Notes under the pieces: model-generated
The model's input: the letters and a program-made list of their open reading frames with translations, nothing else
What the model was told of the DNA's origin: nothing
Database searches by the model: none
Assembly (NCBI GenBank): GCA_918797485.1
Contig: CAKKNE010000003.1
Coordinates: forward strand, 1,984,001-2,048,000
DNA: 64,000 bases
Direction of reading: 5' to 3'
Origin: Pelagomonas calceolata
Lineage: Eukaryota
Translations under genes and position numbers: made by a program
Shown here: positions 25,878 through 29,405 of the stretch, in pieces
Position numbering within the stretch: position 1 is the stretch's first letter
How the letters are laid out: each line of letters begins with the position of its first letter

Positions 25878-28800
25878 TCACTTCCGATGCGCCTCGAGGA
25901 GCGCGACGATGGAGGAGTGGCGTTTGTTTTTTGCGACGGACAGCGGCGTATCGCCGTCCTCGTCCGCCCGATCGACCTCCGCGCCGTTGTCCAGCAGCAG
26001 CCGCGCCGCGTCGACGTGGCCTTCTTCGCAAGCGACGAACAGCGGCGTCTGGCCCCACTTATCCGCCGGATCGACCTCCGCGCCTTTCTCCAGCAGCAGC
26101 CGCGCCGCGTCGACGCGGCCGTTCTCGCAGGCGGCGAACAGCGGAGTCCATCCGAGGTCATTCGCCTGATTAACGTCCGAGCCTTTCTCCAGCAGCAGCC
26201 GCGCCGCGTCGACGTGGCCGTTCTGGCAGGCGATGTACAGCGGCGTCCGACCGTCTTTTGTCGCCCGATCGACCTCCGCGCCTTTCTCCAGCAGCAGCCG
26301 CGCCGCGTCGACGTGGCCCTTCAAGCAGGAAACGAGCAATGGCGTCCAGCCGTCCTCTTCCGCTTTGTCGACCTCCGCGCCTTTGTCCAGCAGCAGCCGC
26401 GCCGCGTCGACGTGGCCTCCCCAGCACGCTGCGTATAATGGCGTCCGGCCGTCCTCCGTCGCCCGGTCGACCTCCGCGCCGTTGTCCAGCAGCACCCGCG
26501 CCGCGTCGACGTGGCCCTTCTCGCAGGCGATGTACAGCGGCGTCCGGCCGTCCTCCGTCGCCCGGTCGACCTCCGCGCCGTTGTCCAGCAGCACCCGCGC
26601 CGCGTCGACGTGGCCCTTCTCGCAGGCGATGTACAGCGGCGTCGCGCCCTGCTTCTCCGCCCGATCGACCTCCGCGCCGTTCTCCAGCAGCAGCCGCGCC
26701 GCGTCGACGTGGCCCTCCTGGCAAGCGACGTACAGCGGCGTCGCGCCGTCCTCGTCCGCCCGGTCGACCTTCGCGCCTTTATCTAGTAGCAGCCGCGCCG
26801 CGTCGACGTTGCCGTGCTGGCAGGCGATGTACAGCAGCGTCTCGCCGCGCCAGTTCGCCCAATCGACCTCCGCGCCAGCGGCCTTCGCCTCTGCTTCGGC
26901 GTGCTTCAACGCGTCCGTCGTCTTTGAGGTTAGAAATTCCTCGCAGTCCGTATGGCCCGCGGACCGCGCCCAGCCCGCCGCGTCGTAGCCCTGGAAGTCG
27001 GTTTGAGCGGCGTCGGCGCCGTGCTTCACGAGCTGCTCGCACAGTCTTAAGTGACCGGCGTCCGCCGCGTGCATCAAAGGCGTCGCGCCCGTGTGCATGT
27101 CCGCGACCGACGGATCTGCCCCGACAGCCAATAAAGCAATCACGGCGTCCGGACATAATGTGGATGAATTCGTCATGTAGTGTAAAGCTGTCGCGCCGGA
27201 CGGTAACGTCACGTCGACGTCCGCGCCTCGCTCCACCAACATCTCGACGAGGTCGCCCGCGCCGTACTGCGCGCTCAATAGTAACGGAGTGTCGCCCGTC
27301 TCCGGATCCACTCGATTGACCTCCTCATCACTTGCATTCTGGACGTCGCCCTTCGCGTTGCTCTCGACGTCCTCGGCGCCCTGGCCCCAGTACGGTAACG
27401 CGCCTCTTAACGCTACGAGGAGGTTGGGAGGCGGCGTGTAGTCGTAGGGCTGCGTCGTGCGCGGCCGCCCGAAGACGGGCTCGATCTCGTCTGGCAAAGG
27501 AGGCTGCTTTTTCTCCTCGGGGGCCTTGGCTGCTGCCGCGGCAAGGCGTTTCTCGGCCTCCGCCGTGGCCGCGTCAGCGCGCTCCTTTTCTTCTTCAGCG
27601 GCCCTAGCGTCGGCGGCGCGGACCTCGTCGCCATTGGCAGTGCGCGCCGCCGGCTCCACGCTTCGCTCGAGCGACCGCACGAGGTCGTAAATTCGATGCG
27701 AGCGCCCGTTGATCGCCTTAATTTTGTCGAACGTCACCTGAAGCTCGCCGACGAGGCCCGACGACACATGTCCGAGGGAAAAGTAGATGCAGCGCCACCC
27801 CGACGGCTTCGGCTCGCCGAAGCTATCTTTCACGCGCACGACTTCGAGGTCACCGCCGCCGTTGAGGAGCGAGAGCTGGCGGATCCCTTCGTGCAGCGAG
27901 GACACGGTCGTAAACAAGGCCGTGGCGCGCTCGACGTCGACGACGCGGCGGACGTCGCCTTCATAATCGCGGGTCGCCTTCTCGACGCAGCGCTCCCGAA
28001 GTTTCGTGGGGCCCCTCCGATATTCCCCGCCAGCGATCCGGATGATACCACGGATGACGTCGTGGAAGTCGTCGCGGCCGCGCTCCGCGAGGCCCAGTAG
28101 ATCTTCGACGGCTTTGCACGATTTGGGCTGCAGCGGCGTCTCAGCGTGCCGTTTTGCGAGCAGCGCGCACAAGTCGAGCATTTCGCCGCAGTGCGGGTCG
28201 CGCGCGTAGATATCCCAGGCCTCCTCGTACGCCTCGACGTCGCCGCGCAGCGCCTTGGCGAGCCCCGCCCGGAGCGTGTCAAGGTCCTTCTCGTCGGCGC
28301 AAAGGAGGTCGTCGAGCTTCGCTTCGAGCGGTCCCATCTTCGGGCGCGCCGCCGCGACGCCAAAACATTCGACAGCCCAGTCCGCCAGCTCCGGGACGAC
28401 GGGCGCTTCAGGCCTCGGGAGCCGCTCGTCGCGGACCAGCGCGGCCACGATCTGAGGGTGAGACTTCCCCTCCCACGGCTTTTTGCGCGTGAGAAGTTCC
28501 CAGATGAGCACGCCGTACGCATACGCGTCGGCGCTCGTGCCGACGCGCGCGCCGTCCTCGAAGGCCTCGGGGGCCATGTACGCGTAGGTTCCCATGACCG
28601 CCGTCATGGTCGACAGCGTGTGATTCAGCTCCTTGCTGATCCCAAAGTCCGCGAGCTTGCAGCGCAGGCCGTGCTCTGCGACGAGCACGTTCTGCGGCTT
28701 CAGGTCGCGGTGGACGATGCCGTGCGCGTGGAGGTGCGCGAGTCCCGCGGCGACGTCGCGCGAAATGTGGAGGACGTCCTGGTGGTTGAGGGGTCCGCGC

Positions 28801-29405
28801 GCGTCGCGGTGAATAACAGCCTCGAGGTCGCAGGCCATCAACTCGGTGACGACGTGGAACCCGAGGTCCGGGATCTCGCACACGCCGTGGACGATCAGCA
28901 GGTTCTGGTGGGGCAGGTCCGACATGACCATCAGATCCTTTATCAGGTCGGCCTTGAGCTCGACGGCGAGGCCGGCGACCTTGGACCGCTTCGCGGCGAT
29001 CTTCCGCGTCCGCCCGCGGCGGCGGCCGGAGCTTGGCTTCTGATTCCACGTGCCGCTGAAGACGACCGCAAAGCCGCCGTAGCCGATTGGCTCGGCGTCG
29101 AGCGTGACGTCCGCGAGCTGCCGCACGGACGCCGGGAGCTGCGGCGCCCCGGACGTGACCTCCTTGAGCTTCCCCAGCTTCTGCAGCAGCACTTTCTGTT
29201 TTAGCTTCGGGATCGCGAATTCGTCGAAGATCTCGGCGAGGTCCTCCGTCGGCGCCGAGGCCAGATACTCGCCGTCGACGTCGTTGTCGTGCAGATGCTT
29301 CGCGAGGTCTGAGAACTTCGGACCGATGCCCTCGACGAGGTCGCGGACGCCGTCCGCGCTTAGTGCATGGAGCGGTTGCCGCCCCGTCGACGCGCCGCCG
29401 CCCAT
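25878..29405 (-). CDS. SAM - protein kinase (TKL-like) - RelA/SpoT-like nucleotidyltransferase - ankyrin repeat protein
   Basis: MGGGAS start; SAM-like helix bundle; GYGGFAVV, AAK, HRDLKPQN, DFG, YMAPE; KLRERCVEK..DYEGDVRRVVDVER..VRVKD.F..SGWR..GELQV..HRIY; ~13 ankyrin repeats. Confidence 0.85.
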   Translation of the reverse strand: MGGGASTGRQPLHALSADGVRDLVEGIGPKFSDLAKHLHDNDVDGEYLASAPTEDLAEIFDEFAIPKLKQKVLLQKLGKLKEVTSGAPQLPASVRQLADVTLDAEPIGYGGFAVVFSGTWNQKPSSGRRRGRTRKIAAKRSKVAGLAVELKADLIKDLMVMSDLPHQNLLIVHGVCEIPDLGFHVVTELMACDLEAVIHRDARGPLNHQDVLHISRDVAAGLAHLHAHGIVHRDLKPQNVLVAEHGLRCKLADFGISKELNHTLSTMTAVMGTYAYMAPEAFEDGARVGTSADAYAYGVLIWELLTRKKPWEGKSHPQIVAALVRDERLPRPEAPVVPELADWAVECFGVAAARPKMGPLEAKLDDLLCADEKDLDTLRAGLAKALRGDVEAYEEAWDIYARDPHCGEMLDLCALLAKRHAETPLQPKSCKAVEDLLGLAERGRDDFHDVIRGIIRIAGGEYRRGPTKLRERCVEKATRDYEGDVRRVVDVERATALFTTVSSLHEGIRQLSLLNGGGDLEVVRVKDSFGEPKPSGWRCIYFSLGHVSSGLVGELQVTFDKIKAINGRSHRIYDLVRSLERSVEPAARTANGDEVRAADARAAEEEKERADAATAEAEKRLAAAAAKAPEEKKQPPLPDEIEPVFGRPRTTQPYDYTPPPNLLVALRGALPYWGQGAEDVESNAKGDVQNASDEEVNRVDPETGDTPLLLSAQYGAGDLVEMLVERGADVDVTLPSGATALHYMTNSSTLCPDAVIALLAVGADPSVADMHTGATPLMHAADAGHLRLCEQLVKHGADAAQTDFQGYDAAGWARSAGHTDCEEFLTSKTTDALKHAEAEAKAAGAEVDWANWRGETLLYIACQHGNVDAARLLLDKGAKVDRADEDGATPLYVACQEGHVDAARLLLENGAEVDRAEKQGATPLYIACEKGHVDAARVLLDNGAEVDRATEDGRTPLYIACEKGHVDAARVLLDNGAEVDRATEDGRTPLYAACWGGHVDAARLLLDKGAEVDKAEEDGWTPLLVSCLKGHVDAARLLLEKGAEVDRATKDGRTPLYIACQNGHVDAARLLLEKGSDVNQANDLGWTPLFAACENGRVDAARLLLEKGAEVDPADKWGQTPLFVACEEGHVDAARLLLDNGAEVDRADEDGDTPLSVAKNKRHSSIVALLEAHRK
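25956..26846 (-). repeat. Nine near-identical 99-bp ankyrin-coding tandem repeats
   Basis: Unit GxTPLxxACxxGHVDAARLLLxxGAEVDxAxxx; repeats 3 and 4 are near-identical at DNA level. Confidence 0.95.

What the first reader, a model, noticed from the sequence alone, without database searches (positions are those of the whole stretch)
25878..29405. Myristoylation-SAM-kinase-RelA/SpoT-like synthetase-ankyrin fusion: candidate eukaryotic alarmone/nucleotide signalling receptor
Seen: one 1175-aa ORF starting MGGGAS (N-myristoylation consensus), then a SAM-like domain (~29165-29375) and a kinase with HRDLKPQN/DFG/APE (~28320-29110; the alphaC Glu position appears to be Asp). Next is a segment (~27676-28013) reading PTKLRERCVEK..DYEGDVRRVVDVER..VRVKDSF..SGWR..GELQV..HRIY, then ankyrins. 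Established: RelA/SpoT synthetase domains have, in this order, RxKxxxSxxxK, DxxxxR, GY(R/Q), ExQIRT and HxxY. Canonical eukaryotic RSHs are plastid-targeted and carry an HD hydrolase; this protein shows neither. Inference: a cytosolic, membrane-tethered sensor in which repeats bind a ligand, SAM oligomerises, and kinase plus nucleotidyltransferase give the output: (p)ppGpp, (p)ppApp, tRNA pyrophosphorylation or another product. The GYR to GWR change hints at altered acceptor specificity. The layout resembles innate-immune or toxSAS logic.
Basis: partly seen in the sequence, partly recalled or inferred. Interest (0 to 1): 0.9.

Follow-up and report, generated by a model that had tools for sequence, protein, structure and literature searches.

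The report
Algal kinase fused to alarmone synthetase
A gene of the marine alga Pelagomonas joins a protein kinase and an enzyme domain folded like bacterial "alarmone"-making toxins to a tail that differs between close relatives, and it likely acts as a stress or immune receptor that would make a signalling nucleotide.

Summary
The 1,175-aa ORF is real and comes from Pelagomonas calceolata. Its middle domain has the RelA/SpoT synthetase fold. Pfam misses it, but its family profile hits the toxin Tas1/Apk1 at E 1e-19 and its model matches small alarmone synthetases (Z about 12). It is nearest the Apk1/RelV/exported-synthetase group, not plastid RSHs. Catalytic Asp, Arg, Glu and Gln are kept, under purifying selection (dN/dS 0.17-0.30). 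The Pelagomonas clade has fixed changes at four otherwise conserved sites (GYRD to GWRC, R528, K566), so the acceptor may differ or activity may be lost.

New here: the kinase-synthetase core recurs in distant relatives. Near-identical copies carry different tails (ankyrin, TPR, armadillo, others), joined just after the synthetase. In stranded RNA-seq of one culture, antisense RNA exceeds sense 8-34-fold. SAM identity, myristoylation and all enzyme activities are untested.

This scan has already noted the same unannotated synthetase family in other protists. I found no paper describing it. Verdict: new variant of a known kind.

The parts
25878..29405 (-). Whole ORF, 1,175 aa, no intron needed
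   Evidence: same protein in NCBI as a partial Pelagomonas calceolata model, P0001
29388..29405 (-). MGGGAS, N-myristoylation-type start (predicted)
   Evidence: sequence; MGxxx[S/T/C] in 14 of 44 rows with a DxER/DxQR motif vs 1 of 120 other rows; consensus rule recalled
29154..29375 (-). Five-helix SAM-like domain, aa 11-84 (probable, not confirmed)
   Evidence: AlphaFold helices 17-27, 29-40, 45-50, 53-62, 67-84 at pLDDT 72-82; Atlas SAM clusters 0.81-0.86; no Pfam or PDB hit
28293..29108 (-). TKL-type protein kinase, aa 100-371; HRDLKPQN, DFG and APE intact, alphaC Asp157
   Evidence: dN/dS 0.29-0.38
28131..28292 (-). Conserved helical hairpin linking kinase to synthetase, aa 372-425
   Evidence: D389 and W397 invariant in the 20-row alignment; helices in both models
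27660..28130 (-). RelA/SpoT synthetase domain of Apk1/RelV type, aa 426-582; K468, R472, K476, D490, R493, K526, E554, Q556, H570, Y573 kept; S528, W537, C539, Y541, N566 changed
27321..27659 (-). Ala/Glu-rich linker where close relatives switch to other tails
26910..27320 (-). First, divergent ankyrin block (3-4 repeats)
25881..26864 (-). Second ankyrin block, 10 near-consensus 33-aa repeats
25901..29666 (+). Dominant antisense RNA in poly(A) libraries spanning the whole gene; 5' ends at 25901-25918; apparently non-coding over kinase and synthetase; + strand splice joints 25996>26131 (GC..AG), 26464>26526 and 26563>26625 (GT..AG)
   Evidence: three runs, one sample; stops in all antisense frames over the synthetase
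25732..25918 (.). Probable divergent promoter region shared by the antisense RNA and the neighbouring cap-methyltransferase-like gene (24874-25647, -)
   Evidence: molecule ends at 25732-25743 and 25901-25918; Pfam Methyltransf_15; promoter inferred

Best explanation
This is likely a membrane-tethered cytosolic stress or immune receptor of Pelagomonas: a conserved kinase-synthetase core carries an exchangeable tail that is predicted to sense a ligand, and the synthetase would transfer pyrophosphate from ATP to the 3'-OH of a purine nucleotide to make an alarmone of the (p)ppApp/(p)ppGpp kind. Shown: one ORF; the fold; kept catalytic residues; purifying selection; tail exchange among close copies; and low sense with high antisense RNA in one culture. 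Inferred: myristoylation holds the protein at a membrane. Ligand binding by the tail, with clustering through the SAM-like domain, switches on the kinase. The kinase then releases the synthetase through the conserved helical hairpin. The product slows growth or kills the infected or stressed cell, or signals to a reader protein. The antisense RNA helps keep a potentially toxic gene low until induced.
For: Fold: model pLDDT 92; the top Foldseek hit is Tas1 6OX6 and all 29 listed hits are RSH synthetases; VIA Z 12.3 RelP-type 6fgk, 11.7 Tas1, 11.3 SaEAS, with the first non-RSH at 7.6. Sequence: Tas1 E 4.3e-6 singly and 1.1e-19 with the family profile. Active site: D490, R493, E554 and Q556 align to the Apk1 residues R330, E382 and the adjacent Gln and to the SaEAS catalytic Asp named in PMC12691689 (numbering offset of 21 is my inference). 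K468, K476 and D490 are invariant in 164 of 164 rows. dN/dS is 0.17-0.30 in 6 of 6 comparisons. A kinase occurs in 11 of 65 longer homologues scanned, most at about 25-33% identity to this protein. Tails of close copies: ankyrin (window), unrelated domain at 94.8% nucleotide identity (L001), Cys-rich (P0009), TPR (P0002, P0003, L004), armadillo (P0004), ankyrin+TPR (P0194). Bacterial relatives are secreted toxins (eCIS core in 6 of 65, PT-HINT, WXG100), and characterised members are toxic in the cytoplasm.
Against: No activity was measured. All 16 Pelagomonas-clade rows replace Y537, D539, R528 and K566, which are kept in 140, 138, 126 and 129 of 148 other rows. The Apk1 ATP-binding N370 aligns to Y541 here, although most of the family also lacks it. 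The Apk1 K353 equivalent could not be placed. The kinase has Asp for the alphaC Glu. Sense RNA is only about 3-11% of reads over the core in the one sample tested. Some environmental copies are broken (stop after the kinase in L006; tail frameshifts in L008, L009 and P0005), though these may be assembly errors. No hydrolase or immunity gene was seen among 34 window ORFs scanned. Nothing here links the gene to infection or stress.
Confidence: 0.45

Rival explanations
1. The domain is active but has changed acceptor: it pyrophosphorylates an RNA 3' end (such as tRNA CCA, as CapRel-type toxins do) or another non-canonical acceptor, and so blocks translation instead of making a free alarmone.
For: The clade keeps every donor and metal residue that could be mapped but has lost two basic residues (R528, K566) and changed GYRD to GWRC in 16 of 16 rows. 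These sit on the acceptor side by analogy to RelP/RelQ (recalled, not tested). The tRNA pyrophosphokinase CapRel ties with the best folds (Z 11.2).
Against: The sequence relatives are nucleotide-using enzymes (Tas1, RelV-like). No tRNA-binding feature was tested, and a fold tie says nothing about substrate.
Confidence: 0.2
2. In Pelagomonas the synthetase is a pseudo-enzyme that binds ATP or an alarmone and regulates the kinase, which is then the only output.
For: Four highly conserved positions are changed together on a long stem branch (0.59 changes per site, support 100). The Apk1 N370 equivalent is missing.
Against: The Mg-binding Asp and Glu, the Arg, the Gln and the Lys residues are all fixed in 16 of 16 rows. 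The synthetase is more constrained than the kinase (dN/dS 0.17-0.30 vs 0.29-0.38). It is the kinase that carries a weakening change (alphaC Asp).
Confidence: 0.2
3. It is a housekeeping or developmental signalling protein, or a little-used member of a birth-and-death gene family, and the antisense RNA is unregulated spill-over from the neighbouring promoter with no link to defence.
For: The antisense RNA starts about 160 bases from the neighbouring gene's start. Some environmental copies are broken. The neighbours are ordinary genes. No infection data were seen.
Against: Purifying selection, exchange of typical sensor repeats and descent from a toxin family fit conflict biology better than housekeeping (inference).
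Confidence: 0.15

Closest known systems
Tas1/Apk1, (p)ppApp synthetase toxin of Pseudomonas aeruginosa (PDB 6OX6)
   Same: Best sequence and Foldseek match; DxxR motif; DYxGD loop; R330, E382 and the adjacent Gln kept.
   Different: Here the domain is in a eukaryotic nuclear gene, fused to a kinase and repeats. It has no secretion domain and no adjacent immunity gene, N370 is not kept, and the product is unknown.
RelV/VpEAS and SaEAS exported alarmone synthetases (PMC12691689; PDB 8VX3)
   Same: RelV-like proteins of Shewanella, Vibrio and Photobacterium share the family's K[DN]RF and GYRD motifs and are the nearest named bacterial relatives found. Their assignment to RelV is my inference from taxon, size and leader.
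   Different: Those are single-domain, signal-peptide proteins making (p)ppGpp, or both alarmones for SaEAS. This protein has a myristoylation-type start, GWRC for GYRD, and four more domains.
Small alarmone synthetases RelP/RelQ (PDB 6FGK, 6EWZ, 5DEC) and CapRel (7ZTB)
   Same: Same fold, Z 10.9-12.3.
   Different: 13-20% identity. Their DxxxxR and GYRSxH motifs are replaced. No Pfam RelA_SpoT hit for this protein.
Eukaryotic RSHs: plastid Rsh1-4 and unplaced divRel (PMC3153485, PMC6881373)
   Same: A synthetase domain in an alga; synthetase-only divRel was reported in fungi, Dictyostelium and diatoms.
   Different: No HD, TGS or ACT domain and no plastid leader. Atkinson's table lists only divSpo and Rsh1 for the pelagophyte Aureococcus, although it has members of this family (P0007, P0204).
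Repeat-gated innate immune receptors such as fungal NLRs and plant integrated-domain or tandem-kinase receptors (recalled analogy)
   Same: Conserved signalling core with exchangeable ANK, TPR or ARM sensor tails.
   Different: No NACHT or NB-ARC domain, so this is an analogy of logic, not membership.

Membership tests
RSH synthetase (SYNTH) superfamily | Pol-beta-like SYNTH fold | tested here: met
RSH synthetase (SYNTH) superfamily | Catalytic Asp, Arg, Glu-x-Gln, basic Syn1 helix and HxxY | tested here: met
   D490, R493, E554, Q556, K468, R472, K476, H570, Y573 by alignment; side-chain geometry not inspected
RSH synthetase (SYNTH) superfamily | GY motif with acceptor-stacking Tyr | tested here: not met
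   Trp in 16 of 16 clade rows, Tyr in 140 of 148 others; Trp is aromatic, so stacking is still possible (inference)
RSH synthetase (SYNTH) superfamily | Pfam RelA_SpoT PF04607 at gathering score | tested here: not met
   no hit at E up to 10; 8 of 65 homologues do hit the model at E up to 0.001
RSH synthetase (SYNTH) superfamily | ATP-dependent 3'-pyrophosphokinase activity | not testable with these tools
   needs an assay
Apk1/RelV/EAS group | Closest sequence relationship and DxxR spacing | tested here: met
   profile E 1.1e-19 to Tas1 vs 7.3e-10 to the next entry; motifs
Apk1/RelV/EAS group | Five Apk1 ATP-binding residues (R330, E382, adjacent Gln, N370, K353) | tested here: inconclusive
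   3 of 5 kept, N370 aligns to Tyr541, K353 ambiguous
Apk1/RelV/EAS group | Export signal, secretion domain or adjacent immunity gene | tested here: not met
   no such Pfam domain in the protein or its neighbours; no signal-peptide predictor was run, but the N-terminus has no hydrophobic stretch (sequence)
Plastid long RSH (Rsh1-4) | HD hydrolase domain and plastid-targeting leader | tested here: not met
   no HD hit; N-terminus is MGGGAS followed by a helical domain
TKL/Ser-Thr protein kinase | Gly loop, beta3 Lys, HRD-x-K, DFG, APE | tested here: met
TKL/Ser-Thr protein kinase | alphaC Glu | tested here: not met
   Asp157; Glu in 19 of 24 rows listed
SAM domain | Five-helix SAM fold or profile match | tested here: inconclusive
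   five helices, Atlas 0.86, no Pfam or PDB hit; domain not folded or searched alone
N-myristoylated protein | M-G-x-x-x-S start and actual modification | tested here: inconclusive
   motif present and enriched in the subfamily; modification not testable
NLR-type receptor | NACHT or NB-ARC NTPase | tested here: not met

The most novel reading that the evidence does not exclude
Pelagophyte algae run a polymorphic immune-receptor system built from a domesticated bacterial toxin. One kinase-synthetase engine is recombined with many sensor tails, is held silent by an antisense RNA, and on activation makes a nucleotide or RNA-end modification not yet known in a eukaryotic cytosol, set by its rebuilt GWRC acceptor site.
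Probability: 0.25. Interest if true: 0.92.

Novelty: new variant of a known kind. Interest (0 to 1): 0.7.

Why it matters
Whether eukaryotes make alarmones outside plastids, and with which enzyme, is open. The papers read here list hydrolases (Mesh1, and divSpo in the pelagophyte Aureococcus) but few cytosolic synthetases. This gene offers an intron-free candidate in a cultured, sequenced alga with RNA-seq, in a family that standard domain libraries miss (886 representatives at E up to 0.001, bacterial and eukaryotic together). If it is active and gated by a kinase and a swappable sensor, it would add a nucleotide-messenger branch to protist immunity, parallel to cGAS and TIR enzymes, and show a bacterial toxin domain turned into a receptor output.

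Tried and rejected
Pfam and NCBIfam gave no RelA/SpoT hit for the domain. No relative was found in GenBank phages by tblastn or in IMG/VR with a single-protein pattern search (low sensitivity). Alignment-based locus searches were not possible. No whole genome is held, so paralogue number and the presence of a hydrolase in Pelagomonas were not tested. The SAM profile against PDB gave only designed helical repeats, which I rejected as compositional. The L001 tail had no Pfam, NCBIfam or PDB hit. A coding role for the + strand RNA was rejected over the core: every antisense frame has stops, and splicing at the observed joints gives at most a 341-codon ORF, lying over the ankyrin end. The L001 'kinase' dN/dS row (61 codons, 0.64) is a spurious alignment and was dropped. 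L006, L007 and L009 were left out of dN/dS as near-duplicates. Literature searches found no paper on a eukaryotic kinase-synthetase fusion; the library lacks most subscription papers, and the original Tas1 paper was not held. No complex prediction was run.
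Full report
OBSERVATION. The ORF runs 29405 to 25878 on the minus strand, 1,175 aa, without a break. 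A source-labelled NCBI protein of Pelagomonas calceolata is 100% identical over the middle domain (P0001); it is a partial model with 87 extra upstream residues that ends inside the ankyrins. Pfam finds the kinase (aa 105-361) and ankyrins, but nothing for the N-terminal or middle domains.

THE MIDDLE DOMAIN. Residues 365-600 hit Tas1/Apk1 (6OX6) at E 4.3e-6. They find 886 representatives at E up to 0.001, of which the best 150 were returned. A profile of 70 sequences (the query and 69 shorter hits) matches Tas1 at 1.1e-19, then YwaC at 7.3e-10 and SaEAS at 9.8e-7. The AlphaFold model has mean pLDDT 92. Foldseek ranks Tas1 first and lists only RSH synthetases. The exhaustive aligner gives Z 12.3 (6fgk, rmsd 2.9, 145 aligned), 11.7 (Tas1, 3.7, 145), 11.3 (SaEAS) and 11.2 (CapRel, RelP), tied within 1 or so, with the first non-RSH at 7.6. 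The fold is settled; it does not tell the substrate.

ACTIVE SITE. PMC12691689 (abstract, passages, sections 5, 9 and 28 read; supplements searched) names Apk1 R330, E382, the adjacent Gln, N370 and K353 as ATP-binding, and SaEAS D121 as catalytic. With an offset of 21 between PDB chain and paper numbering (my inference; it fits four residues and the 460-aa length), R493, E554, Q556 and D490 are kept. N370 aligns to Y541, and K353 cannot be placed. In 164 domain rows, K468, K476 and D490 are invariant. Sixteen rows, all close to this protein and not independent, share W537, C539 and Y541, loss of R528 and loss of K566; the other 148 rows have Y in 140, D in 138, R in 126 and K in 129. That these sites line the acceptor pocket is recalled from RelP/RelQ, not tested. 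The sense frame is under purifying selection: synthetase dN/dS 0.17-0.30 in 6 of 6 loci compared (6 of 9 fetched), kinase 0.29-0.38 in 5.

FAMILY. Of 65 longer hits that I chose for scanning, 11 carry a kinase, 2 ankyrins and 2 TPRs; others carry LRR plus helicase, LIM, WWE or ADP-ribosyltransferase domains. Bacterial-type partners are eCIS core (6), PT-HINT and WXG100, and 8 hit RelA_SpoT. Named eukaryotic members are from Pelagomonas, Aureococcus anophagefferens and Florenciella parvula. Atlas clusters at 0.95-0.97 lean to diatoms and ciliates on very few records. The nearest named bacterial proteins are about 255-aa Shewanella, Vibrio and Photobacterium synthetases with a hydrophobic leader, which I take to be RelV/VpEAS. 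In a quick tree of 83 hand-picked rows out of 164, 53 rows holding the kinase fusions and named algae lie on one branch (SH-aLRT 95). One row labelled Desulfovibrio MAG sits inside it on a long branch. The Pelagomonas rows form a clade (100) on a long stem. Group labels are mine, from domain partners; there was no bootstrap, one-clade test or true root, so no donor is claimed. MGxxx[S/T/C] starts occur in 14 of 44 rows with the DxER/DxQR motif and 1 of 120 others.

CORE AND TAILS. Kinase, helical hairpin and synthetase are collinear in relatives at 25-33% identity, and the 600-aa model has pTM 0.71. Close copies diverge right after the synthetase. L001 is 94.8% identical in DNA to position 27532 and then encodes an unrelated 260-aa domain. 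P0009 (97-98% identical) has a Cys-rich tail. P0002, P0003 and L004 have TPRs, P0004 armadillo repeats, and P0194 ankyrins plus TPRs. L003 shares the upstream DNA and first two-thirds of the kinase at 95-99.5%, then drops to about 80%, has an intron of about 54 nt, and continues with the linker of the TPR-tailed type. That looks like a recombinant allele of this locus, but it is one metagenome contig and could be chimeric. Some copies are broken (L006 stop; L008, L009 and P0005 frameshifts).

EXPRESSION. Three stranded poly(A) runs, listed as one sample, were laid on 24600-30200. The neighbours fix the strand rule: the two minus-strand genes show first mates on +, and the plus-strand gene shows them on -, with leak at 0-2% in the deepest flanking bins. 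Over 27592-29461, mean depth of antisense versus sense reads is about 93 vs 2.8, 91 vs 5.0 and 43 vs 5.3 (my averages of ten bins), i.e. 34-, 18- and 8-fold. The antisense RNA begins at 25901-25918, about 160 bases from the neighbouring gene's start, ends near 29609-29666, and shows plus-strand GT..AG and GC..AG joints. These joints lie in the ankyrin repeats, where reads from other genes can map, and two of them may be one event. Sense reads cover every bin without joints, which fits one mRNA but does not prove it; the 2,715-nt contig is unstranded. The paralogue P0003 is recorded as a complete transcriptome ORF.

MECHANISM. Best reading (0.45): a membrane-anchored receptor whose tail senses a ligand, whose SAM-like domain clusters it and whose kinase releases a synthetase that makes a purine alarmone, kept low by antisense transcription. 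Fold, residues, selection, tail exchange and RNA strands are shown; every functional step is inferred. Characterised members of the nearest group make (p)ppApp, (p)ppGpp or both, so descent does not fix the product. Rivals: changed acceptor such as an RNA end (0.2), pseudo-enzyme (0.2), non-defence or little-used gene (0.15).

PRIOR WORK. PMC12691689 searched bacteria only, has no occurrence of 'eukaryot', and its six supplements hold none of six eukaryote terms tried. PMC3153485 (passages and supplement search; one file unreadable) reports synthetase-only divRel in fungi, Dictyostelium and diatoms, and lists only divSpo and Rsh1 for Aureococcus; whether divRel overlaps this family was not tested. 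Passages of PMC10083569, PMC7229694, PMC3482391, PMC6881373, PMC7159879 and PMC10802352 showed no eukaryotic kinase or repeat fusion; their supplements were not read. Ten searches found no description. Earlier agents of this scan reported the same kind of unannotated synthetase in other protists, fused to ankyrin, SAM, 14-3-3, ARM or LRR; these are unchecked notes and not independent support. What this window adds is the kinase core, the tail exchange among near-identical copies, the GWRC clade and the antisense RNA, in a culturable alga.

VERDICT. Observation confirmed and interpretation partly supported. A new variant of a known kind; interest 0.7.

Noticed in passing
window 25901-29666 (+): Antisense RNA in poly(A) libraries, with splice joints, 8-34 times more abundant than the sense mRNA and starting divergently from the neighbouring gene's start.
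   Followed up: partly
L001 950-1729 (+): Alternative tail on a 95%-identical synthetase. By eye it has an H-G-T motif and layout recalling PARP/ADP-ribosyltransferase domains; no Pfam, NCBIfam or PDB hit.
   Followed up: partly
L003 1-2376: Apparent recombinant of this locus: 95-99.5% identical upstream and in most of the kinase, about 80% after, with an intron of about 54 nt and the linker of the TPR-tailed type.
   Followed up: partly
L006 6021-6024: Stop codon between kinase and synthetase in a copy otherwise matching the intact L004; a null allele, a split gene or an assembly error.
   Followed up: no
window 24874-25647 (-): RNA cap guanine-N2 methyltransferase-like gene (Pfam Methyltransf_15, E 2e-11) immediately downstream.
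   Followed up: no
window 29841-30767 and 31053-31877 (+): Two tandem, related ORFs with only faint glycosyltransferase-like Pfam hits (E about 0.009).
   Followed up: no
window 52601-55414 (-), 58575-60125 (-), 16547-18025 (-): Long ORFs (937, 516 and 492 aa) without any Pfam hit at E 0.001.
   Followed up: no
window 42218-44656 (-): A second ankyrin-containing ORF, 812 aa, with no other Pfam domain.
   Followed up: no
proteins P0063, P0178, P0129, P0020, P0037, P0201, P0016: The same synthetase domain fused to zeta toxin, ADP-ribosyltransferase, helicase (with or without LRR) and LIM-villin headpiece domains.
   Followed up: no
protein P0172 (1,333 aa): Distant relative (GYRD type) with the same order: MGATAS start, helical domain, kinase, synthetase, ankyrins; useful as a comparison enzyme.
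   Followed up: partly
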